DNA from: a phage
NCBI GenBank assembly: GCA_011911785.1
Contig: GCA_011911785.1_4084.1
Strand: one strand, 5' to 3'
DNA length: 64,000 bases
The stretch's first letter is position 1. Each line of letters starts with the position of its first letter. A program made the position numbers and the translations under genes. The notes under the pieces were generated by a model, which was not told the DNA's origin, did not search any database, and was given only the letters and a program-made list of their open reading frames with translations. Of this stretch, positions 11,603 to 46,794 are shown one piece after another.

Positions 11603-11838
11603 TTAAATGTAATATTGAAGTAAATGAATACACTACTAATCAATATAACGGTGAGAAAGAGTTTTCATTTAGTACAGTACAACATGTATTGAATTTCCCA
11701 GTACTTCCATCTATTGGTTCAGTACTGACAATCACAAATACGTATGATACCCAGTACGAGATCCTTGATATTGAGTACAGAGCAAATCTTAGTTCCAGTG
11801 CAGATGTTGAAATCTATATCATCGTAGAAGAGGTATAA
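11599..11838 (+). CDS. hypothetical protein
   Basis: ATGA overlap. Confidence 0.5.
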   Translation: MIKCNIEVNEYTTNQYNGEKEFSFSTVQHVLNFPVLPSIGSVLTITNTYDTQYEILDIEYRANLSSSADVEIYIIVEEV

Positions 11839-12164
11839 TGATGTTCAAGAACTTCATTGCTATAGTAGCAGTACTATTCTTAACTACGTGCTTCATCAAT
11901 CCAGTTTATGCTGATAAAGTGCGATGGAAGGATGTTAAATCACCATCCTATTGTGCTGGTTATGCTAAGGTAAAGGATGAACAACACAATAAGCAGTACT
12001 ATAAGGATATGTTTTCATTTTACAATTCAATGATTTCAGAAACTGACTTGATGGCAAAGAGAGTTGATCGTGAAGATTTCCTTCAAGGCTATGACATGAA
12101 TGATGATGAAAAAACATTAGAATGCGTAGAAGTTTTTAATTACATACGAGGGTTTGATGAATGA
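11838..12164 (+). CDS. secreted small protein (signal peptide)
   Basis: Hydrophobic N-terminus ending VYA. Confidence 0.55.
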   Translation: MMFKNFIAIVAVLFLTTCFINPVYADKVRWKDVKSPSYCAGYAKVKDEQHNKQYYKDMFSFYNSMISETDLMAKRVDREDFLQGYDMNDDEKTLECVEVFNYIRGFDE

Positions 12165-18095: not shown

Positions 18096-18890
18096 ATGAG
18101 TACTATCGATGAATTGATTCGACGGAATTCAAAATATTACCAACCATCAGAAATTGTGGATAATATTACTAAATCTGAGTTTGGACCTAATACTCGCAAA
18201 CTCATTCATGTAATGTCTCGTGACGGCTTTAAATGTGATTGTTGTGGTGAATCCAATGTAGTATTCACTTTACATAAGCACAGTACTAAAGAACGTTATA
18301 AATTCAGACCTTATGTACTTAAAGGGAAACGTCTTGTACGCATGACGTTAGACCATAATGTACTGGACTGTCTCCAGGGTGGTAATGATAAAGAAAACAT
18401 GACTGCACTGTGTGAGGATTGTAATGCCTTACGCCAGCATAAGTTCGCAGAGTACAGCGAGTTTAAGTACTGGTATCATAATGCAGACCGTTCAATTGAG
18501 CCTAATGTAAACTACTGCTTCATTGAGTACATCAAGAATGCAAAAGATACATACATTCTTAAATCCATGTCTCCGATTACAGTGTTTCCTGAGAATCTAT
18601 TCAGTACTATGGAGCGTGATTTTAAGCGTGGTATCATCAATGCATTCAAGCACTTAGACAAAGGTATCAAACACTTTGATGTTGAATGTTTAAATTCAGG
18701 TATGAATCGTTTAGTACAAATTTACATGAAATCGTTTATAGGTATTGACAGTGCACGACTACCAGTATATAATTACTTTATTGAAAGCGTAGAAGGTGAA
18801 TCACTTCGTGATTATGGTGAAAGATTTAATAAGAAAGTCTTCACTGCAATAGCAAATGAGATTCATTACTATAAACCATATGTAATTTAA
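18096..18890 (+). CDS. HNH-type endonuclease-like protein (possible homing endonuclease)
   Basis: CDCCG...TLDHN...GGNDKENMTALCEDCN motif arrangement typical of HNH nucleases. Confidence 0.55.
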   Translation: MSTIDELIRRNSKYYQPSEIVDNITKSEFGPNTRKLIHVMSRDGFKCDCCGESNVVFTLHKHSTKERYKFRPYVLKGKRLVRMTLDHNVLDCLQGGNDKENMTALCEDCNALRQHKFAEYSEFKYWYHNADRSIEPNVNYCFIEYIKNAKDTYILKSMSPITVFPENLFSTMERDFKRGIINAFKHLDKGIKHFDVECLNSGMNRLVQIYMKSFIGIDSARLPVYNYFIESVEGESLRDYGERFNKKVFTAIANEIHYYKPYVI

Positions 18891-19459: not shown

Positions 19460-19487
19460 TTGACAGAAGATATCAGTACTGTATAAT
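19460..19487 (+). promoter_or_regulatory. sigma70-type promoter (TTGACA-16-TATAATgtttatatc)
   Basis: Consensus hexamers with cagtactgTATAAT context. Confidence 0.6.
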
Positions 19488-19532: not shown

Positions 19533-19811
19533 ATGTCTTTTACCAAAGAAGAACGTGACCTTATTAAAAAAGCAATCTGGTTTTATGCTAATGAAGGGGA
19601 GTGCGATGAAGAAAAAGCACGTGAACTGTGTAATATCCTTGAGCAGAAACAAGAACTGAAAGTGTATCGTATCCGTGTTTTGGATGATGGGGATCGTATT
19701 GTCCTAGCTGAAACAAAAGAAGAAGCAGAACAAATCTTCACTGATAAAAACGAAAATCCACATTGGATGGAAGAAGTCTGTGAAGTAAAAAAAGGTACTT
19801 ATATCGATTGA
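19533..19811 (+). CDS. hypothetical acidic protein
   Basis: Internal ATG with AGGAAA upstream. Confidence 0.5.
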   Translation: MSFTKEERDLIKKAIWFYANEGECDEEKARELCNILEQKQELKVYRIRVLDDGDRIVLAETKEEAEQIFTDKNENPHWMEEVCEVKKGTYID

Positions 19812-19836
19812 CTGTACTGAATAATAGCAGTATAAT
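19808..19836 (+). promoter_or_regulatory. sigma70-type promoter (TTGACT-17-TATAAT)
   Basis: Hexamers; followed by a long imperfect hairpin in the leader. Confidence 0.55.
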
Positions 19837-19929: not shown

Positions 19930-20238
19930 ATGTTTCAAACTAACACTCAAGGTTTTGTAATCATCGATTTGAATCAAAACAGCGGTTATTGGATGAAACC
20001 TACTGACGCATGTATGCAGTTTGATTTTTTAGGTTACAGGATTAGTGTAAGTACTGGTGCTTCTGTACTGCGTGGTGGTTGTATCGTTGAACATCTGGTA
20101 ACTGATCCAGAAGGTCGTGAGTATGAAATCGCAGGTTCAGTACAAGATGCCATTATGTTTGTATGTCAGCGTGAAATGAATGGTTCGAATTCAAATGCAC
20201 TGACTCATGCTCTTTCTCAAGAAGTGGAGGTTCGTTAA
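19930..20238 (+). CDS. hypothetical protein
   Basis: ATG after GAGGAA. Confidence 0.55.
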   Translation: MFQTNTQGFVIIDLNQNSGYWMKPTDACMQFDFLGYRISVSTGASVLRGGCIVEHLVTDPEGREYEIAGSVQDAIMFVCQREMNGSNSNALTHALSQEVEVR

Positions 20239-20483
20239 TGAAATATATTGTAGCAGTACTCGTCGCATTTTTACTCACTGCATGTGATGCTTCAACCAAA
20301 GAACGAACTAGTGAGTTTGTTTTACCAACTGAACTCAAAGAAGCAGGGTGTAAGATTTATCGTATGCAACAAGACGGTGCTGGTGCATCTTTGTACACTG
20401 TGTACTGTCGTAATGCAAACACTACTACGTCTTATATGAGTGGTAAAGTTCGCGTGGATACATCTGTGGTTCATGGAGAATAA
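20238..20483 (+). CDS. small lipoprotein (lipobox LTAC)
   Basis: Signal peptide plus LTAC lipobox; TAATG overlap. Confidence 0.55.
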   Translation: MKYIVAVLVAFLLTACDASTKERTSEFVLPTELKEAGCKIYRMQQDGAGASLYTVYCRNANTTTSYMSGKVRVDTSVVHGE

Positions 20484-20485
20484 CA

Positions 20486-20854
20486 ATGAGTCTTGATACT
20501 ACTCGTTCGGCAAATATCTTAAAACGTTTGAATGACGAAGAATATCTAGCTAATACACGATATCAGCTTGAAAAACTCAGTCGAAATGTAAAATATATTG
20601 ATATCACTACACAGCTTCCACTGGATGAATATCACAAGTTAAACGAAGATATTGTATATCACCCAAATGAAATTTGGATTGAGTGGGAATCATGGACCCA
20701 CTCGGTTCTCCGTATCGAGGGCTATTGTGTGAAATATGAAAGTTCACTAGGTGATTTTACAAAAAAACTGTCGATATTGTGCACTGACACACATGAAATA
20801 GTTGAGGTGAATTTGAATCATATGAAGGGTTGCCGTTGGGGAGATCTTAAATGA
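20486..20854 (+). CDS. hypothetical protein
   Basis: ORF in tight array. Confidence 0.55.
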   Translation: MSLDTTRSANILKRLNDEEYLANTRYQLEKLSRNVKYIDITTQLPLDEYHKLNEDIVYHPNEIWIEWESWTHSVLRIEGYCVKYESSLGDFTKKLSILCTDTHEIVEVNLNHMKGCRWGDLK

Positions 20855-21126
20855 TTAAAAAACTATTGACTGTGTTTGTTGTATTCTGTACAATGTTTCT
20901 TACAGCATGTAATGATGACGGCAGGTTAAGTGCAAAAGACTTAGCTCGATATGATTGTACATTCACAGGTAAGTCTTTTATTAACGAGTATGAGGTATGC
21001 ACACAATCAGGTCGTATCTGTGGTGGTTGGGAGAAACGTCAGGAGCGATTGTATGTATATGAATGTCCTGGGCAACTCAACAAAGTAATAAGTACTCACA
21101 AACTTGTTTATGATAAGGTTGAATAA
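20851..21126 (+). CDS. small lipoprotein (lipobox LTAC)
   Basis: Signal peptide plus lipobox; ATGA overlap. Confidence 0.55.
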   Translation: MIKKLLTVFVVFCTMFLTACNDDGRLSAKDLARYDCTFTGKSFINEYEVCTQSGRICGGWEKRQERLYVYECPGQLNKVISTHKLVYDKVE

Positions 21127-21335
21127 TGACTACCAATGAAATGATGCAGGTTATCTGGAATAAAGGTTGTGATCTTAAAATCACTAGTACTGATGTTCGT
21201 GTATTCAAAACTGAATACATGGAATACTTGGACCTTGATACTTATAATAATATTGTATCAATTGAACACAAAGGTGCAGTACTGGAAACAATTGACGTTG
21301 TTCTCAAGAAAGCAACGGATTTATTGGGAGCATAA
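21126..21335 (+). CDS. hypothetical protein
   Basis: TAATG overlap. Confidence 0.5.
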   Translation: MTTNEMMQVIWNKGCDLKITSTDVRVFKTEYMEYLDLDTYNNIVSIEHKGAVLETIDVVLKKATDLLGA

Positions 21336-21336
21336 G

Positions 21337-21483
21337 GTGAACAATAAAGAATGGGAAGAGTACCGCAAGAAGTGCCGAGAGTTTGATAAAGAACTCACTG
21401 GTACTGTGAACGCAGTAATGTGGGTATCTGCAATAATTGCAGTACTGGGACTGTTTGCAGTTATCATTAATAAGTTTTTTTGA
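21337..21483 (+). CDS. small C-terminally membrane-anchored protein (GTG start)
   Basis: GTG with GGGAG upstream; track ORF 21169 overlaps previous gene. Confidence 0.35.
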   Translation: MNNKEWEEYRKKCREFDKELTGTVNAVMWVSAIIAVLGLFAVIINKFF

Positions 21484-21492
21484 GGAATACAC

Positions 21493-21693
21493 ATGTTTAC
21501 TTTATATCTAGCCGTAGTACTAACAAATGGTGAAATCACACGTACATTAGGTGACGGTGTATATAAAACACCTGAGCAGTGTTATTCTGCGACACACTGG
21601 CCTCGTGATGCTGGTGAAGAAACTCGTACCGAATACAAATGTATGAAGGTCAAAGGTGACTTTGTTAACCTTAAGGTCATTGAGGTGAAGTAG
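21493..21693 (+). CDS. hypothetical protein
   Basis: ATG after GAGGAA. Confidence 0.5.
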   Translation: MFTLYLAVVLTNGEITRTLGDGVYKTPEQCYSATHWPRDAGEETRTEYKCMKVKGDFVNLKVIEVK

Positions 21694-22199
21694 TGAATCT
21701 TAGTACTGATAAGTTTGTAAAGTTCATAGAGTTTATCAACTTCAATGAGAGCTACAATGGTACGTACAATACTATGAATATTGTATCTGATAAAGTATTT
21801 GATAGTACAATGTTCTATTTGTATGATACAAACGGTGATAAGCTGTGTGATGTTACATTCGGTATTGGTGATCTTTTTGAATCTGCGGTTTATCTATCTA
21901 AACCAACGGTGCGTGATACATATGAAATTCACTTTCATAATAGACCGAATCACAAAAACATTGTAGAATATGATATACCATCATCACACGAACTGTTCAT
22001 TGTAGATTACAGTACTGAAGAGGGTGTATTTCAAAGTTCATTGCTATACAACTTTGAACTACACGATCCTGATATTCCTAAAGTACTGGCAATTTCCAAT
22101 AAGGTATGTGAATTGCCATATAACATATACATGTCAGTTCCTGGTAAAAGAGTAGGTAATTTCTGTAAAGCCTTTGACATACAAGCGGATGATAAATGA
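21693..22199 (+). CDS. hypothetical protein (weak EE-YFQ-S-like motif STEEGVFQSS)
   Basis: Overlapping start; degenerate family motif. Confidence 0.55.
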   Translation: MNLSTDKFVKFIEFINFNESYNGTYNTMNIVSDKVFDSTMFYLYDTNGDKLCDVTFGIGDLFESAVYLSKPTVRDTYEIHFHNRPNHKNIVEYDIPSSHELFIVDYSTEEGVFQSSLLYNFELHDPDIPKVLAISNKVCELPYNIYMSVPGKRVGNFCKAFDIQADDK

Positions 22200-22420
22200 A
22201 CAGATACGTGATTGAATACGTGGGTATATCTGAATTTGATAACATTCGTGGCTATGAAAAGGTCATGAGTGAACGCACGATATATGTTAGGGGTCGCGAT
22301 GAAGCCCATGTTCTCTCTTTACTGTTAAATGACCTGACAAAGTTCAATACAACAAAGACACAACGTTATATTGAAACAATTAAATCTATTAAACTTTTAG
22401 ACGAGGATGATGAAGAATGA
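22196..22420 (+). CDS. hypothetical protein
   Basis: ATGA overlap. Confidence 0.5.
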   Translation: MNRYVIEYVGISEFDNIRGYEKVMSERTIYVRGRDEAHVLSLLLNDLTKFNTTKTQRYIETIKSIKLLDEDDEE

Positions 22421-22629
22421 ATTTATATCTAGTAGAAGGTACAGTGCAGGTTTTCCGTTTTGATGGTGATCGTGGTATGCGTTTCTCACATGTTGAAGAA
22501 TTTAAATTTGTCGTACATGCAGAAGGTGAGTACGAAGCAGAGATTAAAGTATCTGAATCCTTTGATAAGAAAGAAACAGTAGATGTACAGTATCAGCAAC
22601 TACAATTTAAAGTGTGGCCTACGCTTTAA
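22417..22629 (+). CDS. hypothetical protein
   Basis: ATGA overlap. Confidence 0.5.
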   Translation: MNLYLVEGTVQVFRFDGDRGMRFSHVEEFKFVVHAEGEYEAEIKVSESFDKKETVDVQYQQLQFKVWPTL

Positions 22630-22633
22630 AAAC

Positions 22634-22662
22634 TTGACACGCATGTAAAAAGCGAGTATTAT
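22634..22662 (+). promoter_or_regulatory. sigma70-type promoter (TTGACA-17-TATTAT)
   Basis: Hexamers read directly. Confidence 0.5.
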
Positions 22663-22693
22663 ATCTGTATTATGAATTAACTGAGGAATACGT

Positions 22694-23359
22694 ATGCTCG
22701 CCAATTTAAGTTACATTATTAGTGATGATATGGTACAAAGTCGTGGTATGTATCTTGAGAAAGTTCCATACGATAGCGATGGTATCAAAGGAACTTTATA
22801 CGAAAGTCGTTTTGACAGAAAGCATCCATTCTGGGAAAAGGCTAATCTAACGGAAGAAGATAGTAATCGTTTATTTTGTGCTGTGCAGACGCCTACACCT
22901 GGTATATTAGCGGGTTATGGTATAGATAAAGTCATTAACTTTATGACAGACTATGAAGTTATTAAAAGTCTGCAATATATTAATACGAACAATGGTGAGT
23001 TCTATAATTCTGATGATTTTCTTGCTATGTGTAGTGCTTCATATGAGAGTGAATTATTGCCAAGTGGTAGACCATTCCCATTGTCAACACATTGTAATTC
23101 CCCTTACGGTGTAGCTGACAACTTACAGCAGATCCTTAAGAAACATAAGAATGTTCTTACATCTGAAATGGAAGTTGTTATTGGATTTCATCCAGTGTAC
23201 AAGGAAGATCAACCTGAACATGGTGGGTGGCGTTGGCATAAGCACGGCACATACATTGGTACTCATAAGAAAAAGCATGAGTACTTGTATGATGAAGAAG
23301 GTATTGATGTTGTTTATTGTTACGAACTAATCCCAGTAAAGAAAAAGGAAACACTATAA
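22694..23359 (+). CDS. hypothetical protein
   Basis: ATG after GAGGAA. Confidence 0.55.
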   Translation: MLANLSYIISDDMVQSRGMYLEKVPYDSDGIKGTLYESRFDRKHPFWEKANLTEEDSNRLFCAVQTPTPGILAGYGIDKVINFMTDYEVIKSLQYINTNNGEFYNSDDFLAMCSASYESELLPSGRPFPLSTHCNSPYGVADNLQQILKKHKNVLTSEMEVVIGFHPVYKEDQPEHGGWRWHKHGTYIGTHKKKHEYLYDEEGIDVVYCYELIPVKKKETL

Positions 23360-23601
23360 TGTTAATTTTATACGTTGTACTGATTTTATTAGTTAACTTT
23401 TCTCCAACTATTTTAACTTTAGTATGGGGTAAATTTTATGATGCTGTAAAAGTATTTCTCTTGAATACTGCATGGGTATTGGTAAGTCTGACTCTTTATT
23501 GGTCTACTGATTGGATGATGATTGTGAGTCATATACTACTATATATTTCATTCCTAATGTTGTTCCAAGAAAAAGAAGTACTTGACAAACTTGAAGGTTA
23601 G
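23359..23601 (+). CDS. small membrane protein
   Basis: Internal ATG with AAGGAA upstream; hydrophobic. Confidence 0.45.
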   Translation: MLILYVVLILLVNFSPTILTLVWGKFYDAVKVFLLNTAWVLVSLTLYWSTDWMMIVSHILLYISFLMLFQEKEVLDKLEG

Positions 23602-23610
23602 ACCTATAAT
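23582..23610 (+). promoter_or_regulatory. sigma70-type promoter (TTGACA-17-TATAAT)
   Basis: Consensus hexamers. Confidence 0.55.
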
Positions 23611-23633
23611 ATCCTTCTACTAAGGGGGATATT

Positions 23634-23894
23634 ATGGCAGTAGGGTTTGGTTCACCAGATAACCACCAAGAAACGATACAAGCAACTATTGATAATGCTA
23701 TTGACTTTGCTCGCTCAAATCTGTATAGTGGTGAGTCTGAAGAGTACTGCATCGACTGTGACTGTGAGATACCAGAGAAGCGGAGGTTAGTACTGAAGGG
23801 TGTAAAACGATGTGTTCAGTGTCAATCAAAGGTTGACAAGGTATATCAAGAGCGTTATAATAGACGTGGAAGTAAAGACAGCCAACTCCGTTAA
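23634..23894 (+). CDS. C4 zinc-finger protein (TraR/DksA-like)
   Basis: CIDCDC...CVQC motif near C-terminus. Confidence 0.45.
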   Translation: MAVGFGSPDNHQETIQATIDNAIDFARSNLYSGESEEYCIDCDCEIPEKRRLVLKGVKRCVQCQSKVDKVYQERYNRRGSKDSQLR

Positions 23895-23914
23895 ATTAAT
23901 ATGAGGAACTACTA

Positions 23915-24247
23915 ATGTTATCATTTATTCTTTCTATCCCTTGTTTTGTTCTTCTTTTTGTATTACTTTTTGAAGCATTCCAGAAAGATGAAGAAGTTAA
24001 AAATGACCTACGTAAACTATTCAATCTGGATAGTCCAGTAGTTGGGATCTTTTATGTTTTAGTATGTGTGTATGCTGTTGTGTGGCTATTGGGCTTTTTA
24101 TTACCACTATCTACTGTACTTGCATGGATTTCCGTTGTTGAAAATTTAGTAGCTATTGTATGGTTTATTCAATGTTTGTTTAGTGGTTTGGTTTCTGATT
24201 GGATTTTCTTACTTAAAGTGAAGTTTAAATCAAAATCTGATAAGTAA
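23915..24247 (+). CDS. multi-pass membrane protein
   Basis: Hydrophobic helices; followed by hairpin plus T-run. Confidence 0.5.
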   Translation: MLSFILSIPCFVLLFVLLFEAFQKDEEVKNDLRKLFNLDSPVVGIFYVLVCVYAVVWLLGFLLPLSTVLAWISVVENLVAIVWFIQCLFSGLVSDWIFLLKVKFKSKSDK

Positions 24248-24338
24248 TAACCAAGTACTCATATAAAATACAGAATAGTATTAAATACTTGTGTACTAGT
24301 TAAGTACGCAAGTATTTTTTTATTATTTTGAGGTTAAT

Positions 24339-24704
24339 ATGGGAAAGCTTACAATTATAATAGCCATGATAATGGCACTTAATGTTATGCCAGTTGAAGC
24401 TAACGAGGACGTTGCGTGGTTCGATTGCATAGGAAATGATGGACAGTGGCATACGTTTTCCAGTGATCCATATAATGGTACTGATATACTAATAGATGGT
24501 GAAAATTATCGTTTTGTTAGTGAAAGTAAAATTGGCAACAAAAAGGTATCGACATTTAGAACTGATTCTGGTATAATTGCTAATGTCATACTGATAGTTG
24601 ATCCTGAAAATAATACAGGGGATATATATGTAGTGGTTTACCGTGATCATTCCAATAAAAGAAGTCTGGATCTTGATAAACTTCATTTACATTGTCAAAT
24701 ATAA
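24339..24704 (+). CDS. secreted small protein; paralog of 25090..25443
   Basis: Signal peptide; shared D-I-x-I-D-G-x-Y segment. Confidence 0.5.
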   Translation: MGKLTIIIAMIMALNVMPVEANEDVAWFDCIGNDGQWHTFSSDPYNGTDILIDGENYRFVSESKIGNKKVSTFRTDSGIIANVILIVDPENNTGDIYVVVYRDHSNKRSLDLDKLHLHCQI

Positions 24705-24718
24705 TTTAAGGTAAATCT

Positions 24719-25093
24719 ATGTTCAATAGTATCATTGGGTTCTCATTAGTACTTCCACAAATCATTTTTGGTATTTGTTTTGTAACTTTTATGATGGGGT
24801 CAATCTATGGTATATGGTATTACATTTTAAAACAATCAGATGGAATCATTTTAAAAATAACAATGCATTTTGATGTGGATTCACCAGCATGGAATTCATC
24901 TATTATTACCAATACATTGTATTTTATGATGATCATTTTGGAACAATTGGGATTTGTATCTAATAGTAATGTTTCTATGACCGCAGGTATGGCAAGTATT
25001 TGTTGTTTGTGGTATATTGTTTATAAGATTGATGTGTTGTATAATATGTATCGTGAAATGGTATTGAACAGAGATATGCAGAGGAAAAAATGA
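24719..25093 (+). CDS. multi-pass membrane protein
   Basis: Hydrophobic helices. Confidence 0.5.
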   Translation: MFNSIIGFSLVLPQIIFGICFVTFMMGSIYGIWYYILKQSDGIILKITMHFDVDSPAWNSSIITNTLYFMMIILEQLGFVSNSNVSMTAGMASICCLWYIVYKIDVLYNMYREMVLNRDMQRKK

Positions 25094-25443
25094 TGAAAGT
25101 TATATTATTTTTTATGTGTATTATTATGTGTGGTGTCTCTTATGCTGCACCCTTAGCCGGATTGCTTTGTAAAGAGAATTCTGAACAACACATATTCCAA
25201 GGGGATTCAGATGACCTTGATATCATTTACATCGATGGTACTGAATATACATACGTTAAAGACCATACTGTTGGTGATATCAGTTTCACTGAATATGCAA
25301 AAACAGGTGACACTGATTATAGAGCCTACCTTCAAGTGAATATGATAGAGGGTGAAGACGGAACACAAGAAGTCAAACTCGTACTTAAACGTATTGGAGA
25401 TAAGGAGGCTGATTTTGGAGGTGAGTGTACATATGATGATTGA
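25090..25443 (+). CDS. secreted small protein; paralog of 24339..24704
   Basis: Signal peptide; ATGA overlap. Confidence 0.5.
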   Translation: MMKVILFFMCIIMCGVSYAAPLAGLLCKENSEQHIFQGDSDDLDIIYIDGTEYTYVKDHTVGDISFTEYAKTGDTDYRAYLQVNMIEGEDGTQEVKLVLKRIGDKEADFGGECTYDD

Positions 25444-25450
25444 TTAAAAA

Positions 25451-25483
25451 AGGTTGACTAACGTCAGCCTTTTTTGTTATACT
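25451..25483 (+). terminator. terminator hairpin fused to extended -10 promoter (TGtTATACT)
   Basis: AGGTTGACTAACGTCAGCCT hairpin, T-run, then -10. Confidence 0.6.
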
Positions 25484-25513
25484 TATTCCATATTAATTGA
25501 ATAGGTGCACATC

Positions 25514-25954
25514 ATGATTGTATATCGTTTTGAACTGAAATTCAGCTATATTGAACCAAATCTGGAACCAGCCAAAACGGTAGGTCCATTCGCACGATAT
25601 TCATCACGATACAGTACTGCCAATGGTTTCGACCGTCTGCGTATGACCACACCTACACAATTTCAACCAGAACCCACCGACGATGGAATTTATTCTATAA
25701 AGCGTGGCTGGGCATTTGGATGCCAAAGTTTAAACGACCTGTTCAGATTCTTTACAATGGACTTAGGTAAACTTCATCGTTCAGGATTTTCTGTTTTTGT
25801 GTATGAAGTTCCTGATAACCATGTAGACATTGGACATAACCAAGTGCAGTACTATTGTGGTAGTGCAAAACTACTTCGTATTATGTCAGTAAAGGAAGCT
25901 AAAGAAGAATTTCGTGCCACAAGATTTAATAAGGAAGAGATGGTATATGGATAA
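25514..25954 (+). CDS. hypothetical protein
   Basis: First ATG after composite promoter. Confidence 0.55.
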   Translation: MIVYRFELKFSYIEPNLEPAKTVGPFARYSSRYSTANGFDRLRMTTPTQFQPEPTDDGIYSIKRGWAFGCQSLNDLFRFFTMDLGKLHRSGFSVFVYEVPDNHVDIGHNQVQYYCGSAKLLRIMSVKEAKEEFRATRFNKEEMVYG

Positions 25955-26303
25955 AACATCAACACGATTTGCAAAGTTCTTGAGTTATGAGATACCACAA
26001 GATCCGTATTTCGACCAACGTGACGATGAAGATTACATAAAGTTAACTCGTGAACTACGAAACAAGTTCCAACAGATTTTAAGTTCATACACTAATACAC
26101 ATCCACATTTAAAGTACTTCATTAAGGCAGATATAGATTCAGATGATTCTGAACTATCATTCCTTGAATACACAGTGGAGTGTGTTGGGTATGTACCCGA
26201 TAATAGTGTAATTAATCACAACAAAATAAAGTTCGACTTGTACGCTATTTGTGTTATAATGAATATAATTGCACAAATGAACAACTATTCAATAGGGGAT
26301 TAA
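25947..26303 (+). CDS. hypothetical protein
   Basis: Internal ATG with GGAAGAG upstream. Confidence 0.5.
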   Translation: MDKTSTRFAKFLSYEIPQDPYFDQRDDEDYIKLTRELRNKFQQILSSYTNTHPHLKYFIKADIDSDDSELSFLEYTVECVGYVPDNSVINHNKIKFDLYAICVIMNIIAQMNNYSIGD

Positions 26304-26567
26304 ATGAAACTGAAATTGAACTATCATGGTTTTCGTCTGCGTGATGATGTGGAGTTCCTTCGTCGCACACCAGGTGCTGAGATGTTTTTAACTGAAATGG
26401 GTGTCCCATTTAAAGTCGAGCACATTGGTGACAATGACTGCCTGGTATATGATAATCAACCGGATATCAACGTTCCGTGGTATTCTGAACATATGTACAT
26501 TGATATGGCGGCTCGCTACAACTGTACGTTCGAAATTACATCTAAAGGTATTGCTATTCAATTCTAA
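26304..26567 (+). CDS. hypothetical protein
   Basis: Abuts previous stop. Confidence 0.5.
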   Translation: MKLKLNYHGFRLRDDVEFLRRTPGAEMFLTEMGVPFKVEHIGDNDCLVYDNQPDINVPWYSEHMYIDMAARYNCTFEITSKGIAIQF

Positions 26568-26588
26568 TAGTCTGATGGACACGAGTAA

Positions 26589-26813
26589 ATGAAATACATG
26601 CTGGTGGCATTAATGTTTGTGAGCACGATAGTACAAGCCAGAATCAAGTACTTTGTGAAGTGTACAAACGTTAGCGGTGGCTACACAGAGACATATCAGG
26701 GTAAGTCGGTTAAGATGGCAATACACAATGATAGAGGAACAGTGATTTTCCTTGTGAATGATATAATCATTTTGTACAAACCAGATGTACCATGTGAAGT
26801 AAAAAGATATTAA
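26589..26813 (+). CDS. secreted small protein
   Basis: Signal peptide. Confidence 0.5.
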   Translation: MKYMLVALMFVSTIVQARIKYFVKCTNVSGGYTETYQGKSVKMAIHNDRGTVIFLVNDIIILYKPDVPCEVKRY

Positions 26814-26819
26814 ACTACG

Positions 26820-26850
26820 GGGTTGGCATAAGTCAGCCCTTTTGTATAAT
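26820..26850 (+). terminator. terminator hairpin fused to -10 (TGTATAAT)
   Basis: GGGTTGGC-ATAA-GTCAGCCC hairpin with wobble pairs, T-run, TATAAT. Confidence 0.55.
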
Positions 26851-26858
26851 GGTGACTT

Positions 26859-27437
26859 ATGAACCGTAAAGGTAAGTTTAAAGTATCAAAGAAGAATAAA
26901 AGTGGAAGGTTCAATGATATATGCTTAGGTTTTATCAAAGCACACAATAAACTTTCTGCCCTGAGTAGAAAGATAGTATCTAACAAGATTGATATTAGAT
27001 ATATAAGTACTAACAATAGTACAGGGAAAGATGCACATCCAACTGAAAATATTATTTCAGTATCCTTCGTATACGATGGTCTGGACATTACGATAGATGA
27101 TTACAGACGATACGGTACTGGGTTTATACGTATCTATTGCAGAGATGCATCTGATAAGCCGGAACGTATTCGTATTATCGGTACATTGAGTGCTGGTATA
27201 TTTGAGTGGGAGATTGTTCAACTTAAAACTATCGATGAGTACACCACAAGTTCTAATATTATTGAGTTGAATTGTAATGTGAAAGACCTCCCAAACTTGA
27301 GCGAAGAAGAATATTTTCAAGAAAGCTTGCTAACGCCAAATTTGGATGATATAATTAAACAATATAAGACAATGGTGTACTTCTTCAAATGTATCAAACC
27401 TAAGACTTGTTTGATGAATATTGTCCGTGATCTATAA
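26859..27437 (+). CDS. hypothetical protein, EE-YFQ-S module family (SEEEYFQES)
   Basis: ATG 8 nt after the -10 (possible leaderless start); conserved C-terminal module. Confidence 0.5.
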   Translation: MNRKGKFKVSKKNKSGRFNDICLGFIKAHNKLSALSRKIVSNKIDIRYISTNNSTGKDAHPTENIISVSFVYDGLDITIDDYRRYGTGFIRIYCRDASDKPERIRIIGTLSAGIFEWEIVQLKTIDEYTTSSNIIELNCNVKDLPNLSEEEYFQESLLTPNLDDIIKQYKTMVYFFKCIKPKTCLMNIVRDL

Positions 27438-27448
27438 CAGGAAAAACT

Positions 27449-27880
27449 ATGTGGGTTAACGTTAATAGTACTGAACTTAATGAAATTGATATCTTTGCAT
27501 TTGTTAATCTGGAAACTGATACCTTTGTTCGTGGACGTTTGTTCATGAGTTCTGCCTGTGTTCGCAGTATTGCAGTTATGGATGAACTCGGTCAGGTAAT
27601 TGAGTGCCTACCATTACCTGCATGGGCATATAGCAGTACTGAAGAAGATGTAATGCATAAGATCTTTGAAGGGATCAATAAGCTACCAGGTGCAGATGTG
27701 AAGAATAAGATATTCAACATTGAGAATAAGAACTACAGTGCAGATGTACTGCGTCCTTTAGTTGATTCAGTACTGCAAGCTGCATTAGCTAAACCTAAGT
27801 GCATTATTTTAAAGTACATTCCAGAACTTTCCCTAACTAAAGAGGATATGAAAGGATTTATATTCTCATCGGAGTTGTGA
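27449..27880 (+). CDS. hypothetical protein
   Basis: ATG after GGAAAAAC. Confidence 0.55.
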   Translation: MWVNVNSTELNEIDIFAFVNLETDTFVRGRLFMSSACVRSIAVMDELGQVIECLPLPAWAYSSTEEDVMHKIFEGINKLPGADVKNKIFNIENKNYSADVLRPLVDSVLQAALAKPKCIILKYIPELSLTKEDMKGFIFSSEL

Positions 27881-28104
27881 TGAAAAGGTATAAAATTGAA
27901 TACCTACTTAAAGTAAGAGAGAAAAGTATTAGTAGTGAGAAATACACCAGTGAGATATTCGTCAGAGATGAGTATTACATTGGTGAAAATGAAGTTGAAG
28001 TACTGTTACAATGCATAGAAAATGAATTTCGAGATATGACACGTTATATGTCATTTGAGATATCGTGTGCAAAAGTTACATTCTTGAACAATACTTCATA
28101 TTAA
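27877..28104 (+). CDS. hypothetical protein
   Basis: GTGA overlap. Confidence 0.5.
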   Translation: MMKRYKIEYLLKVREKSISSEKYTSEIFVRDEYYIGENEVEVLLQCIENEFRDMTRYMSFEISCAKVTFLNNTSY

Positions 28105-28108
28105 AAAA

Positions 28109-28133
28109 GGGTTGACTTTTGTTGACCCTTTTT
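28109..28133 (+). terminator. intrinsic terminator (GGGTTGAC-TTTT-GTTGACCC plus T-run)
   Basis: Hairpin with wobble pairs plus T5. Confidence 0.6.
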
Positions 28134-30686: not shown

Positions 30687-30714
30687 TTGACAAACTCAAC
30701 TAGTACTGTATAAT
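30687..30714 (+). promoter_or_regulatory. sigma70-type promoter (TTGACA-16-TATAAT) with leader hairpin
   Basis: Hexamers; GGGATGA/TCATCCC hairpin at 30725-30743 before SD. Confidence 0.6.
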
Positions 30715-35189: not shown

Positions 35190-35408
35190 TTGATAACATA
35201 TAACATCGATAAGGTCATGTTATTATATGCATGTATTAACATGATTGTCGTTTTAGTTAAAGTTTATAGATGGTTTCATACACTTGATATTGATACTGAA
35301 AAGGAGTATAATCCTCAAGAAGCATCTCTTGGATTAAAAATTATTGTTTTAATTAGCGTAGTATCCGTATACATGGTATTACTATCAACTATGATTAAGT
35401 TCACTTAA
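35190..35408 (+). CDS. small membrane protein
   Basis: Hydrophobic; first of eight consecutive small membrane-protein genes. Confidence 0.45.
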   Translation: MITYNIDKVMLLYACINMIVVLVKVYRWFHTLDIDTEKEYNPQEASLGLKIIVLISVVSVYMVLLSTMIKFT

Positions 35409-35418
35409 CGAGGAACAT

Positions 35419-35751
35419 ATGATTAATTTATTTTCAACTGAGGTTATGATTAAAATTACATTAGTATACATGTGTCTATTCGTATACTACCACGCTCTCA
35501 TCGGAATCTTGTGGTTCTTTAAGAAAGGTCGTCTTCTTGAGAAATTGTACCCAGACTATATGATATTGTATACAATCGTCCAGGGTGTAGGAATAGTACT
35601 GGGAATTCTAGTGCACTTGATATATTTGTTTGAACCACACCTTCCGTGTATTACACAATACATTGTATTCGGAACTACTATTATGTGGCTTGTAATGATG
35701 GGTGTGTATGGTCTGTATTTGTACAGGAAACGTATAGTGGGAGATTTCTAA
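35419..35751 (+). CDS. small multi-pass membrane protein (WFFKKGR motif)
   Basis: Hydrophobic helices; paralog motif. Confidence 0.5.
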   Translation: MINLFSTEVMIKITLVYMCLFVYYHALIGILWFFKKGRLLEKLYPDYMILYTIVQGVGIVLGILVHLIYLFEPHLPCITQYIVFGTTIMWLVMMGVYGLYLYRKRIVGDF

Positions 35752-36104
35752 TGCAAGAGGTTATTAAATGGTTGACAACCAGTGATATTGCTAGTACACT
35801 GAACTATGTACTCATTATCTTATATCCGTTTTTGATGGTTCTAAACTTCATTGGATGGTATTTCAAACGTCCAATTTACTACAAGATTAATAATTCAGAG
35901 TACTATGAAAGTGTTGTAATTGCAACCTCAATCACGTATACTATGGGTGCAGTTCTTACAGTCATAGGATTAGGTCAAGGTGATAATCTTAACTTTATGC
36001 TATGTACCTTTGTTATGATATGTATTCCAACACTAATTGTAATTCTATCGAATATTGTGTGGAAAAAAATGTTATTTGCACGCAACAAAATACCGGAGGC
36101 ATAA
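35751..36104 (+). CDS. small multi-pass membrane protein (WYFKRPIYY motif)
   Basis: Internal ATG after GGGAG; TAATG overlap. Confidence 0.5.
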   Translation: MQEVIKWLTTSDIASTLNYVLIILYPFLMVLNFIGWYFKRPIYYKINNSEYYESVVIATSITYTMGAVLTVIGLGQGDNLNFMLCTFVMICIPTLIVILSNIVWKKMLFARNKIPEA

Positions 36105-36439
36105 TGGAGTACTTTATCAGTTTACTACCGTGGTACTTGAAAGTAAGTACAATTTACTACATCATTTCCGCTGGGTTTTATTTCTTGATGTGGTTCTTTA
36201 AACGTCCAATCAGTGAATTCATCGATAATCATCTGATGAGTTTTAAACTTCACTGCTGGTTTTGGTCATCGTCAGTGATGCCATTCATCCATTACGGAAT
36301 TATCAGTACTGGTAAACGTTCTAATGGTGAAATAATTTCCTTGGGTTTTTACTGGATATCGACTATTGTTTACATTGGTGTGCTTTTGTATCCATTTGTA
36401 GTTAAACTACGAAACTCTATCCCAGATCACAGGAAATAA
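36104..36439 (+). CDS. small multi-pass membrane protein (WFFKRPISE motif)
   Basis: Internal ATG after GGAGGC. Confidence 0.5.
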   Translation: MEYFISLLPWYLKVSTIYYIISAGFYFLMWFFKRPISEFIDNHLMSFKLHCWFWSSSVMPFIHYGIISTGKRSNGEIISLGFYWISTIVYIGVLLYPFVVKLRNSIPDHRK

Positions 36440-36440
36440 T

Positions 36441-36761
36441 ATGAAGATTGAATTGATTCTTTTCACAGTAAGTGCATTCTACTTTTGGGTTTGCTGGATT
36501 GGTTTTCTCTTTGCACTAAAACCATTTGACTTCTATGCAAAGCAGTGTAAAAATGCTGCTGTTGGTAATGTAGCTTTTACATTGCTTAGTACATTATGGG
36601 TAATACTGCTTATATTCAATCCACCTGATAATGATTTGGAAATGTCATTGTGTACATTATTTGCAGTCCTGTGTGTATTCGCAGCATTCTGTAGTTATAT
36701 TGGAAAGTTATGTTCTTTGGTATCAAATTTCCATCGTAAACAAAAAGATAAGAGGGTATAA
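36441..36761 (+). CDS. small multi-pass membrane protein
   Basis: Hydrophobic; tight array. Confidence 0.5.
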   Translation: MKIELILFTVSAFYFWVCWIGFLFALKPFDFYAKQCKNAAVGNVAFTLLSTLWVILLIFNPPDNDLEMSLCTLFAVLCVFAAFCSYIGKLCSLVSNFHRKQKDKRV

Positions 36762-37144
36762 TGTACACAACAATATATGTTATTCTTAATATCCTAAGTG
36801 CATGTCTAACAATAGGTGCATTAATATACATTGGAAAGTTCTTTTGTGTAAAGTTCGTCGAAGATGTGTATGAGGATATTGAATACGACTACGAATCTAA
36901 GTGCTTCTTCCATGTTGGATATATCATTTGCTTAGTAACTACTATCTTCACATGGATTGTATACGTATTCGGGATTGGAATCACTTCAATTGGTGAACCA
37001 GTACTGTGCATTATTGGATTAGTGTTTTCTTCAATATTCGGGTTATTGTTCATGATTATTCTTATGTATAATTTAATCTGTACTGCTATTGTTCCTTTCT
37101 TTTATGAAATTCACAATAACATTAAACGTAAGAAACGAGGTTAA
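36761..37144 (+). CDS. small multi-pass membrane protein
   Basis: TAATG overlap. Confidence 0.5.
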   Translation: MYTTIYVILNILSACLTIGALIYIGKFFCVKFVEDVYEDIEYDYESKCFFHVGYIICLVTTIFTWIVYVFGIGITSIGEPVLCIIGLVFSSIFGLLFMIILMYNLICTAIVPFFYEIHNNIKRKKRG

Positions 37145-37146
37145 TT

Positions 37147-37500
37147 ATGTTTTCTCCTGCTGGTCAAGTTATATTCATGTTATGTACACTGGTATTCTTT
37201 ATGTTATCTGTACTACTTGTGATGAAATTCTTTCACATGAAACCATTCAGTACTTGGTATGATAATATTGTGTACTATATTGGTAATGCTATAACACTCT
37301 TTTCAGTTGCATACTATTTCGGTTATTTTGCAATGCTATTTGGGTTATTACTTGAAGCTCGTGCATTGCTTGTAGCTGGTATGGTGGCAGATTTAATGTG
37401 TCTAACACTAGCCTGTATTGGATTTACTGTATGTATGTCGTTAACCATTTTTGACAAATTATGTAAACTACACAAACGTTTAGGTGAGAGGATGAAATAA
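37147..37500 (+). CDS. small multi-pass membrane protein
   Basis: Hydrophobic. Confidence 0.5.
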   Translation: MFSPAGQVIFMLCTLVFFMLSVLLVMKFFHMKPFSTWYDNIVYYIGNAITLFSVAYYFGYFAMLFGLLLEARALLVAGMVADLMCLTLACIGFTVCMSLTIFDKLCKLHKRLGERMK

Positions 37501-37883
37501 TGACTTACCGTGATTACTTTTGTATTTTTGAAATTGCAGTATTCGCTTTAGGTTCAGTCTGGTTACTTCTATACTACTTCTGTATTAATCCAGTATTCAA
37601 TTGGGTTCGTCGTGCTGAACAAAGTAGTGCTGGACAAATAGCAGTTGTTATGGGTATGACATATTATATGTTCGCCGTAGCTTCTGTTGTTATTGAAGTA
37701 ATATTTGGTGGCATGAATGGTGATGATGGGGCAACGTTCTATGGATTCGTAACATTCTTTAGTGTGCTGATTCCGTGTGGTGCTCTTATTATTACTGCGT
37801 TCTATTGGCTATATCGTGGTGTTAAGAAGCTGGAATCAATTCACGTAGATATGCGTTCAAAACGAATGGGGATTGACAAATAA
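37500..37883 (+). CDS. small multi-pass membrane protein
   Basis: TAATG overlap. Confidence 0.5.
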   Translation: MTYRDYFCIFEIAVFALGSVWLLLYYFCINPVFNWVRRAEQSSAGQIAVVMGMTYYMFAVASVVIEVIFGGMNGDDGATFYGFVTFFSVLIPCGALIITAFYWLYRGVKKLESIHVDMRSKRMGIDK

Positions 37884-42971: not shown

Positions 42972-43016
42972 ATATCCTCCTTTATTCATTATATTATATT
43001 TAATCAAAAAAGAAAA

Positions 43017-43035
43017 GCCAGTACAGAGTACTGGC
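43017..43035 (-). terminator. intrinsic terminator (GCCAGTAC-NNN-GTACTGGC), array cassette
   Basis: Perfect 8-bp stem followed on the minus strand by a T-rich run. Confidence 0.6.
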
Positions 43036-43046
43036 ATTTAAAATAA

Positions 43047-44222: not shown

Positions 44223-44266
44223 ATTCCCTCCTTTATTCATTATACTATATTTAATCAAAAAGAAAT

Positions 44267-44285
44267 GCCAGCATCAAGTACTGGC
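44267..44285 (-). terminator. intrinsic terminator, array cassette (imperfect)
   Basis: GCCAGCATCAAGTACTGGC hairpin. Confidence 0.45.
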
Positions 44286-44292
44286 GAAATTA

Positions 44293-45483: not shown

Positions 45484-45529
45484 ATATTCCTCCTTTATTC
45501 ATTATACTATATTTACCCCAAAAAGAAAT

Positions 45530-45548
45530 GCCAGTATCAAGTACTGGC
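45530..45548 (-). terminator. intrinsic terminator, array cassette
   Basis: GCCAGTATCAAGTACTGGC hairpin. Confidence 0.5.
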
Positions 45549-45554
45549 CTATAT

Positions 45555-46788: not shown

Positions 46789-46794
46789 TTTAAT

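What the first reader, a model, noticed from the sequence alone, without database searches (positions are those of the whole stretch)
20238..26813. Cluster of small secreted proteins and lipoproteins, including one paralog pair
Five small ORFs (20238, 20851, 24339, 25090, 26589) carry signal peptides or lipoboxes; 24339 and 25090 are paralogs and the two lipoproteins share the LTAC lipobox. A virulent phage exporting several small proteins to the envelope suggests superinfection exclusion or envelope remodelling.
Basis: inference. Interest (0 to 1): 0.4.

Follow-up and report, generated by a model that had tools for sequence, protein, structure and literature searches.

The report
Exported small proteins of jumbo coliphage
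A giant virulent E. coli phage encodes two small lipoproteins and three small periplasmic proteins among its small, promoter-dense non-structural genes; the export signals are real, the proteins match no characterised family, and their suggested role in shielding the infected cell's envelope is plausible but untested.

Summary
The window comes from an Asteriusvirus (RaK2-like jumbo myophage), 97% identical to Escherichia phage A4. All five ORFs exist as stated. Each has a Shine-Dalgarno site and a textbook N-terminal export signal. Two carry the lipobox L-T-A-C and three carry AXA-type cleavage sites. The signals are kept in orthologues whose sequence has drifted. Every mature part keeps an even number of conserved cysteines.

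24339 and 25090 are true but old paralogues (22% identity). Both copies, and the membrane protein between them, are also present in Klebsiella phage RaK2.

The "cluster" is loose. The five genes belong to at least four unrelated families, sit in at least three predicted transcription units, and are mixed with about 17 non-exported genes and several unlisted small membrane proteins (scan statistic p about 0.02).

20238 belongs to a large uncharacterised lipoprotein family, phrog_902 (584 phage records, 267 sequence clusters). Asp at +2 predicts inner-membrane retention. 25090 is modelled, at low confidence, as an 8-stranded beta-barrel.

No sequence or profile match to characterised families appeared; Cor gave one weak hit over the signal peptide. 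The 20238 model matched no solved fold.

Function therefore remains an inference. I favour a periplasmic, post-adsorption protective or inhibitory role. This is an ordinary kind of phage gene set of modest interest.

The parts
19808..19836 (+). Sigma-70-like promoter (TTGACT-17-TATAAT, 11/12) upstream of the gene run 19930-22629 that contains both lipoprotein genes
   Evidence: Perfect-consensus promoters are 13 in the window against 0.19 expected. Activity was not tested.
20238..20483 (+). Lipoprotein 1 (81 aa; signal MKYIVAVLVAFLLTAC, Asp at +2). Member of the large uncharacterised phage lipoprotein family phrog_902
   Evidence: phrog_902, E 1.7e-13; 584 phage records; 267 clusters; lipobox; invariant C38, C57; AF2 pLDDT 72.5, small beta meander; no fold match; dN/dS 0.13-0.17; Cys-Asp invariant in the closest subfamily.
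20851..21126 (+). Lipoprotein 2 (91 aa; signal ...MFLTAC, then N-D-D; four further Cys). Narrow family: Asteriusvirus, Salmonella phage Munch group, Klebsiella fENko-Kae01
   Evidence: phrog_31263; 42 records; orthologues have CDE/CDD; two Cys lost together in Munch; not demonstrably related to lipoprotein 1; dN/dS 0.12-0.35.
23359..23601 (+).
   Evidence: Similarly placed small polytopic proteins occur in 121Q (gp186, a detected homologue) and RaK2 (ORF263, no detectable sequence similarity).
23833..23861 (+). Perfect sigma-70 consensus promoter (TTGACA-17-TATAAT) upstream of 23915
23915..24247 (+). Small polytopic membrane protein (110 aa, 3-4 TM), phrog_31401, directly upstream of the trio
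   Evidence: A homologue is detected in 121Q and Munch; RaK2 ORF264 holds the same position without detectable similarity.
24283..24317 (+). Conserved hairpin plus U-run 15-25 nt upstream of the trio's SD. Its 5' arm overlaps ATTAAATA (24280-24287)
   Evidence: kept in 6 phages of 2 genera; 2 pairs with compensatory changes; unique in the window; 7 of the 9 ATTAAATA sites lie upstream of the RCC1-like paralogues and one lies here.
24339..24704 (+). Periplasmic paralogue A (121 aa; signal ...PVEA|NED; Cys near both ends of the mature protein)
24719..25093 (+). Polytopic membrane protein (124 aa, about 3 TM, basic C-terminus) between the paralogues. Its stop overlaps the start of 25090 (ATGA)
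   Evidence: found only in Asteriusvirus and Alcyoneusvirus; between the pair in 121Q and RaK2.
25090..25443 (+). Periplasmic paralogue B (117 aa; signal ...VSYA|APL), modelled as an 8-stranded up-and-down beta-barrel
25445..25476 (+). Terminator-like hairpin that contains a -35-like TTGACT (promoter-like site 25454-25483); closes the trio
26589..26813 (+). Small secreted protein (74 aa; signal ...IVQA|RIK; 2 Cys in the mature part), Asteriusvirus only
   Evidence: phrog_31284; 32 records.
26819..26840 (+). Terminator-like hairpin overlapping the promoter-like site 26823-26850 (TTGGCA-16-TATAAT)

Best explanation
The five ORFs are real genes of a virulent Asteriusvirus jumbo phage, and they encode proteins exported through the host Sec pathway.

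Two (20238, 20851) are lipoproteins that would be processed by Lgt and signal peptidase II. Three (24339, 25090, 26589) are soluble periplasmic proteins cut by signal peptidase I. Each probably carries a disulfide made in the periplasm.

They are not one system. They belong to at least four unrelated families, in at least three predicted transcription units, inside a long block of small genes rich in host-type promoters, together with several small inner-membrane proteins.

Lipoprotein 20238 is one member of a very large, uncharacterised family of roughly 60-residue lipoproteins found in several groups of phages of enterobacteria, Vibrio and Acinetobacter. Its conserved Cys-Asp start predicts that in E. 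coli it stays on the periplasmic face of the inner membrane.

24339 and 25090 are old paralogues, probably small beta-barrels. They flank a polytopic membrane protein in a three-gene unit kept in two phage genera.

Most likely role (inference): these proteins act in the periplasm or at the inner membrane of the infected cell. There they would block a post-adsorption step of a second infection, or inhibit a periplasmic enzyme such as a cell-wall hydrolase. That is the logic of T4 Sp/Imm and P1 Sim. It is not masking of an outer-membrane receptor as T5 Llp does.
For: Shown or computed here.
- The ORFs, start sites and export signals are present.
- The signals and Cys pairs are conserved across diverged orthologues.
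- The two lipoprotein genes are under purifying selection, dN/dS 0.12-0.23 for unsaturated pairs.
- Host-type promoters are dense, and the neighbours include a DksA/TraR-like zinc finger.
- Cys-Asp is invariant in the closest 20238 subfamily.
- The trio is syntenic in 121Q and RaK2 and has coupled stop/start codons.
- Between the window phage and A4, which are otherwise 99-100% identical, the lipoprotein cassette 20238-21126 is a divergent patch of 91.5-97%. This fits module exchange at a host or phage interface.

Established knowledge (my own).
- Asp at +2 is the Lol-avoidance signal in E. coli.
- T4 Sp is a periplasmic inhibitor of the gp5 tail lysozyme, and T4 Imm is a small inner-membrane protein.
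- P1 Sim is a Sec-exported exclusion protein.
Against: - There is no homology to any characterised exclusion protein or inhibitor.
- The 25090 model is low confidence (pLDDT 59.8, from a four-sequence alignment). The 8-stranded barrel is a very common fold, so the inhibitor analogy is weak.
- The 20238 family keeps the same motifs in phages of E. coli, Vibrio and Acinetobacter, which have unrelated tails and receptors. That points to a conserved host target rather than a rival phage.
- The +2 residue is not conserved across the whole family (D 34, S 27, E 20, T 16 of the 136 with a canonical lipobox).
- The timing of the trio is unresolved.
- There is no experimental evidence of export or of any phenotype.
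Confidence: 0.35

Rival explanations
1. Host-directed envelope takeover. The exported proteins, above all the phrog_902 lipoprotein, bind a conserved host periplasmic or inner-membrane machine, for example cell-wall synthesis or turnover, Tol-Pal, proteases or an envelope-based defence. This would stabilise or recondition the cell during the long jumbo-phage cycle and would not be aimed at other phages.
For: - The 20238 family keeps invariant Cys residues and the Y.LP.EL..C..Y / V.CPN motifs in phages of enterobacteria, Vibrio and Acinetobacter, which have different virions and receptors.
- In Felixounavirus the gene lies between DNA polymerase and ligase, and in the Vibrio phages it lies next to a helicase. 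That is among replication genes, not next to receptor-binding genes.
- Purifying selection acts on it.
- The region carries host-type promoters and a DksA-like regulator.
Against: - No target is identified, and there is no similarity to known inhibitors.
- The other four proteins are restricted to one phage lineage. That fits phage-versus-phage conflict at least as well.
- The lipoprotein cassette is a recombination patch between near-identical phages.
Confidence: 0.3
2. Lysis-timing module. The polytopic protein 24719 is a holin-like or holin-regulating protein. The two periplasmic paralogues modulate it, in the way T4 RI acts on holin T.
For: - 24719 is 124 aa with about three TM segments and a basic C-terminus, a holin-like outline.
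- It is coupled to 25090 by an ATGA overlap.
- The trio lies behind a conserved hairpin that overlaps ATTAAATA. In this window that octamer otherwise sits almost only upstream of the RCC1-like paralogue genes, and in RaK2 it reads TATAAATA, the T4 late-promoter consensus.
Against: - There is no endolysin or spanin nearby.
- The fEgEco12 paper reports a holin and a lysozyme for that phage (PMC13070987), while the record calls the trio's membrane protein 'hypothetical'.
- There is no homology to any holin or antiholin family.
- From my own knowledge, T4 RI is helical and uses a SAR signal. The signals here are strongly hydrophobic, with AXA sites.
Confidence: 0.1
3. Llp/Cor-type 'lytic conversion'. 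The two lipoproteins reach the inner leaflet of the outer membrane and inactivate the phage's receptor. This would prevent re-adsorption and loss of progeny on cell debris.
For: - Both homologues are annotated 'lytic conversion lipoprotein' in the GenBank record of phage fEgEco12.
- Like Llp, 20238 is a roughly 7-kDa lipoprotein with one predicted Cys pair. Its model has a short helix plus a few beta-strands, and Llp is described as a short helix plus four strands with a C11-C58 disulfide.
- It is probably expressed early.
- A weak Cor PHROG hit exists, E 0.0058.
Against: - The annotation is not discussed or justified in the paper.
- The Cor hit spans residues 1-48 and includes the signal peptide.
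- llp lies immediately upstream of the receptor-binding protein gene. These genes lie among small genes of unknown function here, and between polymerase and ligase in Felixounavirus.
- Cys-Asp predicts inner-membrane retention for 20238 and for the JNE01 and Munch orthologues of 20851.
- The family spans phages that infect different host genera.
Confidence: 0.08
4. No functional cluster. The five genes are independent accessory genes. They are near each other only because this phage packs most of its small accessory genes into one same-strand block.
For: - There are at least four unrelated families.
- There are at least three predicted transcription units, separated by promoters and terminators.
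- About 17 non-exported genes are interspersed.
- Phyletic spreads differ widely: 584, 42, 45, 45 and 32 phage records.
- Clustering is only modest, p about 0.02 with boundaries chosen after the fact.
- Other signal-peptide ORFs lie elsewhere, at 11838 and 61358.
Against: - The sub-cluster 23359-25443 (two polytopic proteins plus the trio) has the same layout in RaK2 and 121Q, and is partly kept in Munch.
- The two lipoprotein genes stay two genes apart across the genus.
Confidence: 0.5

Closest known systems
T5 Llp (and Cor of phi80/T1/N15), lipoproteins that inactivate FhuA
   Same: Small lipoprotein of about 7 kDa made by a virulent phage, probably early. The predicted fold is beta-rich and there is one conserved Cys pair.
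   Different: No sequence or fold match. The gene is not next to a receptor-binding-protein gene. Asp at +2 predicts the inner rather than the outer membrane. The family spans phages of several host genera, whereas Llp and Cor are specific to one receptor.
T4 Sp (spackle) and Imm; P1 Sim
   Same: Small proteins of a phage that are sent to the periplasm (Sp, Sim) or the inner membrane (Imm). They act after adsorption. This is the same cell compartment and size class as the proteins here (my own knowledge for the T4 and P1 facts; for the proteins here).
   Different: None of these families appeared among the PHROG or Pfam matches. From my own knowledge, Sp is helical, whereas 25090 is modelled as a beta-barrel. 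No functional data exist here.
PliC/MliC, Brucella PhiA and Neisseria ACP periplasmic lysozyme or hydrolase inhibitors (small 8-stranded beta-barrels)
phrog_902 (homologues of Felix O1 p170)
   Same: 20238 is a member (E 1.7e-13). It shares the lipobox, two invariant Cys and the Y.LP.EL..C..Y / V.CPN motifs.
   Different: The family has no known function, so membership names the protein but does not explain it.
T4 RI/T holin-antiholin pair
   Same: A small membrane protein encoded next to small periplasmic proteins.
   Different: No homology, no lysis genes nearby, and cleavable rather than SAR-type signals (SAR features from my own knowledge).

Membership tests
Bacterial-type lipoprotein precursors (20238, 20851) | Positive n-region, hydrophobic core, and a lipobox [LVI][ASTVI][GAS]C about 15-25 residues from the N-terminus | tested here: met
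   LLTAC at residues 12-16 and FLTAC at 16-20. My heuristic flags only these two among credible genes. LipoP and SignalP were not available.
Bacterial-type lipoprotein precursors (20238, 20851) | The lipid-modified Cys is conserved in homologues | tested here: met
   C16 is near-invariant in 108 sequences, and 136 of 150 representatives have a canonical lipobox. All 20851 orthologues keep [LS][TS][AG]C.
Bacterial-type lipoprotein precursors (20238, 20851) | Actual lipidation and cleavage by signal peptidase II | not testable with these tools
   Needs globomycin and palmitate labelling.
Sec/signal-peptidase-I secreted proteins (24339, 25090, 26589) | n-h-c signal peptide with small residues at -3 and -1, and no further TM segment | tested here: met
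   VEA|N, SYA|A and VQA|R, with hydrophobic cores of 13-14 residues. The same layout is seen in diverged orthologues. This is a heuristic only.
Paralogue pair 24339/25090 | Significant sequence similarity and shared conserved positions | tested here: met
   BLASTP E 5e-5, 22% identity. Both hit phrog_27330. Both Cys are invariant and D..IDG..Y is nearly invariant across 14 sequences. Both copies are present in RaK2.
phrog_902 | Profile match over the mature domain | tested here: met
   E 1.7e-13 over residues 1-70. 267 clusters at E<=1e-3. 584 phage records.
T5 Llp | Sequence or profile homology to Llp | tested here: not met
   The only named PHROG match was a weak Cor hit. No PDB sequence hit, single or profile.
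T5 Llp | Llp fold (short helix plus four strands, with an N-to-C disulfide) | tested here: not met
T5 Llp | Gene immediately upstream of the receptor-binding-protein gene | tested here: not met
   Feature as stated in bioRxiv 10.64898/2026.03.26.714494. Here the neighbours are small genes of unknown function. In Felixounavirus the homologue lies between DNA polymerase and ligase.
T5 Llp | [quoted passage not shown] | tested here: not met
   Cys-Asp in 20238 and its closest relatives is the E. coli inner-membrane retention signal (my own knowledge). 20851 has Cys-Asn-Asp here and Cys-Asp in JNE01 and Munch. This is a prediction, not a fractionation.
T5 Llp | Blocks the phage's own receptor | not testable with these tools
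   Needs adsorption assays.
Cor (phrog_1119) | Profile match to the mature Cor domain | tested here: inconclusive
   E 0.0058, 18 bits, residues 1-48 against profile positions 1-49 of 78, so the match includes the signal peptide.
T4 Sp / Imm, P1 Sim | Sequence homology | tested here: not met
   None of the eight exported or membrane proteins matched such a family in PHROGs at E<=0.01 or in Pfam at E<=1.
MliC/PliC lysozyme inhibitors | Pfam MliC domain | tested here: not met
   No Pfam hit at E<=1.
MliC/PliC lysozyme inhibitors | 8-stranded beta-barrel fold | tested here: inconclusive
Spanins (o-spanin lipoprotein) | Adjacent or embedded i-spanin gene, and a place in a lysis cassette | tested here: not met
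   The neighbours 19930 and 20486 have no TM segment. No lysis genes are nearby. Asp at +2 is incompatible with an outer-membrane o-spanin (my own knowledge).
Anti-phage defence systems (PADLOC) | Match to any PADLOC model | tested here: not met
   No hit at E<=1 for eight proteins.

The most novel reading that the evidence does not exclude
Two things may hide in this ordinary-looking set.

(1) The phrog_902 lipoprotein may be a widespread inner-membrane-anchored effector of large phages of Gram-negative bacteria that binds one conserved periplasmic host machine. That would be a new and common host-takeover mechanism.

(2) The module 23359-25443 has the same layout in RaK2-like jumbo phages. 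It consists of two small polytopic proteins, a conserved hairpin, and the unit of periplasmic beta-barrel, membrane protein and periplasmic beta-barrel. It may be a membrane complex forming a previously undescribed envelope guard, acting either in post-adsorption superinfection exclusion or in lysis control.
Probability: 0.2. Interest if true: 0.6.

Novelty: new member of a known kind. Interest (0 to 1): 0.3.

Why it matters
Virulent phages are known to export a few small proteins that protect the infected cell. Examples are T5 Llp, T4 Sp and Imm, and P1 Sim. Few such proteins have been characterised, and I found none described for RaK2-like jumbo phages, which are candidates for therapy.

If these genes exclude other phages, they would affect how jumbo phages behave in cocktails and in mixed infections.

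The most useful concrete lead is the phrog_902 lipoprotein. It is tiny and easy to test, and it is present in hundreds of sequenced phages, including Felixounavirus and Vequintavirinae members of the kinds used in phage collections. A phenotype for it would annotate a large family at once.

As it stands, the finding is a correct description of ordinary accessory genes, not a discovery.

Tried and rejected
- **Family libraries.** Pfam, NCBIfam, PADLOC and PHROGs scans of the five proteins and three membrane neighbours gave only PHROGs of unknown function, plus sub-threshold hits to lipoprotein signal peptides.
- **PF16225.** It is listed as precomputed for the 20238 homologues, but direct Pfam scans at E<=10 did not reproduce it. 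I disregard it.
- **Word-index protein search.** It found only near-identical phage copies.
- **PDB searches.** Single-sequence and profile searches found nothing.
- **Are the two lipoproteins related?** The idea came from the shared LYVY.CP / L.VV.CPN motif, and I rejected it. There is no BLASTP alignment, and hhalign on mature sequences gives probability 5.9%.
- **Is 26589 a short relative of the pair?** Rejected: hmmsearch E 0.47.
- **Spanin hypothesis for the lipoproteins.** Rejected: no i-spanin neighbour, no lysis context, Asp at +2.
- **Fast evolution specific to the secreted pair.** Rejected. The whole block 21693-28104 is only 24-80% identical to Asteriusviruses other than A4, and most genes there fall below 60%, exported or not.
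- **Positive selection on the lipoproteins.** Not seen: dN/dS 0.12-0.35.
- **Wider locus searches.** The search for related loci failed for A3, A5 and A1, which lack a conserved enough stretch. With A6 it found no relatives in IMG/VR.
- **AFDB50 fold search.** Not available.
- **'Structural protein' label.** The 25090 homologue carries it in the CRJP21 record. No paper was found, and the label conflicts with a cleavable signal peptide, so I treat it as unverified.
- **Literature.** Searches found no study of these genes in Asteriusvirus.

Full report
**What the window is.** The region 20000-27000 is 97.4% identical over its whole length to Escherichia phage A4 (ON286972, genus Asteriusvirus, 355 kb). 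Only its first 1.7 kb is conserved at 86-92% in the other roughly 35 Asteriusvirus genomes. G+C is about 35%. A close relative is described as strictly lytic (PMC13070987). In A4 every gene under the finding is 'hypothetical protein' except a C4 zinc-finger protein.

**The observation.** All five ORFs are present at the stated coordinates on the + strand. In each, the listed ATG is the first start codon of the open frame. Four have a clear Shine-Dalgarno motif at the right distance and 26589 has a weak one.

The N-termini are textbook export signals:
- 20238: MKYIVAVLVAFLLTAC|D
- 20851: MIKKLLTVFVVFCTMFLTAC|ND
- 24339: MGKLTIIIAMIMALNVMPVEA|NED
- 25090: MMKVILFFMCIIMCGVSYA|APL
- 26589: MKYMLVALMFVSTIVQA|RIK

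A simple heuristic of my own flags 16 of 130 window ORFs. It scores n-region charge, hydrophobic core, a cleavage site or lipobox, and the absence of later TM segments. By my reading, seven of the 16 are convincing: these five plus 11838 and 61358. SignalP and LipoP were not available.

The stronger evidence is comparative. Orthologues from 121Q, JNE01, ph0011, UE-S1, RaK2 and Munch keep the same layout and cleavage motif although the residues differ. The mature parts carry conserved, even-numbered cysteines, as expected for disulfide-bonded periplasmic proteins.

The two lipoprotein genes are under purifying selection, with dN/dS 0.12-0.23 in unsaturated comparisons.

**The paralogue pair.** 24339 and 25090 align at 22% identity, E 5e-5. 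Both hit phrog_27330. In a 14-sequence alignment they share both invariant cysteines, one near each end of the mature protein, and a nearly invariant D..IDG..Y motif. No other window ORF belongs to the family.

Both copies exist in Klebsiella phage RaK2, so the duplication predates the split of Asteriusvirus and Alcyoneusvirus.

The gene between them (24719) encodes a polytopic membrane protein. It is found only in these phages, and it lies between the pair in both 121Q and RaK2. Its stop overlaps the start of 25090.

**Is it a cluster?** Only loosely.
- The five proteins fall into at least four unrelated families.
- Their distributions differ widely: 584, 42, 45, 45 and 32 phage records.
- Promoter-like and terminator-like sites split them into at least three units.
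- About 17 non-exported genes lie between them. Their neighbours have no known function, apart from a DksA/TraR-type zinc finger.
- A permutation scan statistic gives p about 0.02 for five of seven signal-peptide genes lying this close.

The tighter unit is 23359-25443. It holds two polytopic proteins and then the periplasmic-membrane-periplasmic trio. The same layout recurs in 121Q and RaK2, and it is partly kept in Munch.

**Expression.** The window holds 13 perfect TTGACA-N16-18-TATAAT sites against 0.19 expected. Eleven of them are on the + strand. Sites at 23582 and 23833 lie inside the finding, and an 11/12 site at 19808 lies upstream of the lipoprotein run. I infer host-polymerase, early transcription for the lipoprotein genes.

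The trio is different. A 14-bp hairpin with a U-run (24283-24317) lies just upstream of its ribosome-binding site. This hairpin is conserved in six phages of two genera, with two compensatory pair changes. It is unique in the window.

The 5' arm of the hairpin overlaps ATTAAATA. That octamer occurs only nine times in the window, and seven of those lie in the repeated block upstream of the RCC1-like paralogue genes. In RaK2 it reads TATAAATA. The trio's timing is therefore unresolved.

**Lipoprotein 20238.** It matches phrog_902 at E 1.7e-13. An exhaustive profile search finds 267 clusters, nearly all 74-130 residues long.

tblastn finds the family in 584 phage records. These include Felixounavirus, Vequintavirinae, 114-kb Vibrio phages, Acinetobacter phages and other jumbo phages. 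There the gene sits among replication genes, for example between DNA polymerase and ligase in Alf5.

Nearly all members have a lipobox, and a few have an AXA-type signal instead. C38 and C57 are invariant. The +2 residue varies across the family, but it is Asp in all the closest relatives. In E. coli that predicts retention in the inner membrane (my own knowledge).

**Lipoprotein 20851.** This is a narrow family. The GenBank record of fEgEco12 calls both lipoprotein homologues 'lytic conversion lipoprotein', but the paper does not mention them.

T5 Llp is an early 7-kDa outer-membrane lipoprotein, encoded immediately upstream of the receptor-binding-protein gene, with a C11-C58 disulfide (bioRxiv 10.64898/2026.03.26.714494). 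The genes here fail the position, sorting and homology tests for that family.

Between the window phage and A4, the cassette 20238-21126 is a divergent patch (91.5-97%) in an otherwise 99-100% identical background. That suggests the cassette was exchanged by recombination.

**The pair's fold.** Only four sequences could be used for the alignment. The 25090 model has pLDDT 59.8, with 72-81 across residues 41-80, and shows eight consecutive strands.

Models of orthologues in BFVD superpose at TM 0.65-0.67. This supports a fold class, not a function.

I favour a periplasmic or inner-membrane, post-adsorption protective or inhibitory role, following the logic of T4 Sp/Imm and P1 Sim (confidence 0.35). 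A host-directed envelope role is nearly as likely (0.3), especially for phrog_902, given its conservation across hosts. Lysis control (0.1) and Llp-type receptor masking (0.08) are less likely.

Most probably the five genes do not form one system.

Noticed in passing
window 41619-52463 (- strand), plus 38465-41398: Ten tandem paralogues of 298-450 aa, all starting MLPF(V/A)RM(L/F)(E/D)(Y/F)GN. One tested copy and the adjacent 977-aa protein match phrog_4219, 'regulator of chromosome condensation' (RCC1-like repeats). Most copies are preceded by the same block: a terminator hairpin (GCCAGTACT...TACTGGC plus a T-run), then TTTGATTAAATATARTATAATGAATAAAGGAGG.
   Followed up: partly
window 35190-37883 (+): Eight consecutive small genes (72-127 aa) that each encode a 1-4 TM membrane protein (phrog_19454 and phrog_26405, unknown function). 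This looks like a tandem array of membrane proteins. It is a denser concentration of envelope-targeted genes than the finding itself.
   Followed up: no
window 52566-55838 (+): A family of very small (about 60-75 aa) tandem paralogues, several starting M(H/Y)KE(Y/F)Y (phrog_11711, unknown function).
   Followed up: no
window, whole; e.g. 19460-19487, 30687-30714, 56852-56879, 61218-61245: Thirteen perfect sigma-70 consensus promoters against 0.19 expected. Several share the extended stretch AGTACTGTATAAT, which suggests one stereotyped strong early promoter.
   Followed up: partly
window 25445-25483, 26819-26850, 28104-28133: Terminator-like hairpins that carry a -35-like TTGAC/TTGGC inside the stem or loop. 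At 25445 and 26819 the scan also calls an overlapping promoter-like site. These may be combined terminator-promoter elements between gene blocks.
   Followed up: no
window 24280-24317 and the same position in L004, L005, L007, L009, L010: A hairpin with compensatory changes, conserved across two genera, overlaps ATTAAATA (TATAAATA in RaK2) just upstream of the trio. It may be a promoter embedded in a terminator.
   Followed up: partly
window 18096-18890 versus L001: A gene whose homologues are annotated HNH endonuclease in 121Q, fEgEco12 and ph0011 is present in the window but largely absent from phage A4. Conversely, A4 carries about 356 extra bases near window 25450. These are small indel differences between otherwise 99-100% identical phages.
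   Followed up: partly
window 11838-12164 and 61358-61657 (+): Two further ORFs with convincing cleavable signal peptides lie outside the finding (…NPVYA|DKV, and one ending …SFAVNA). They match phrog_36332 and phrog_31669, both of unknown function.
   Followed up: partly
window 21493-21693 (+): A 66-aa protein with a short hydrophobic N-terminus and two Cys also present in the RaK2 copy. It has a weak sub-threshold DUF1482 hit (E 0.0026). It may be another envelope-directed protein, but it has no clear signal peptide.
   Followed up: no
L004 12607-12858 and 13202-13621 (121Q gp202, gp204); L005 9432-9734 (RaK2 ORF273): In the same region, related phages carry additional ORFs whose N-termini look like signal peptides; I saw no signal-peptide ORF in the corresponding stretch of the window. 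The exported-protein repertoire of this block therefore varies between relatives.
   Followed up: no
L006 1504-1854 (CRJP21 gp_527): The 25090 homologue is annotated 'structural protein' in one GenBank record. No supporting paper was found, and the label conflicts with a cleavable signal peptide.
   Followed up: partly
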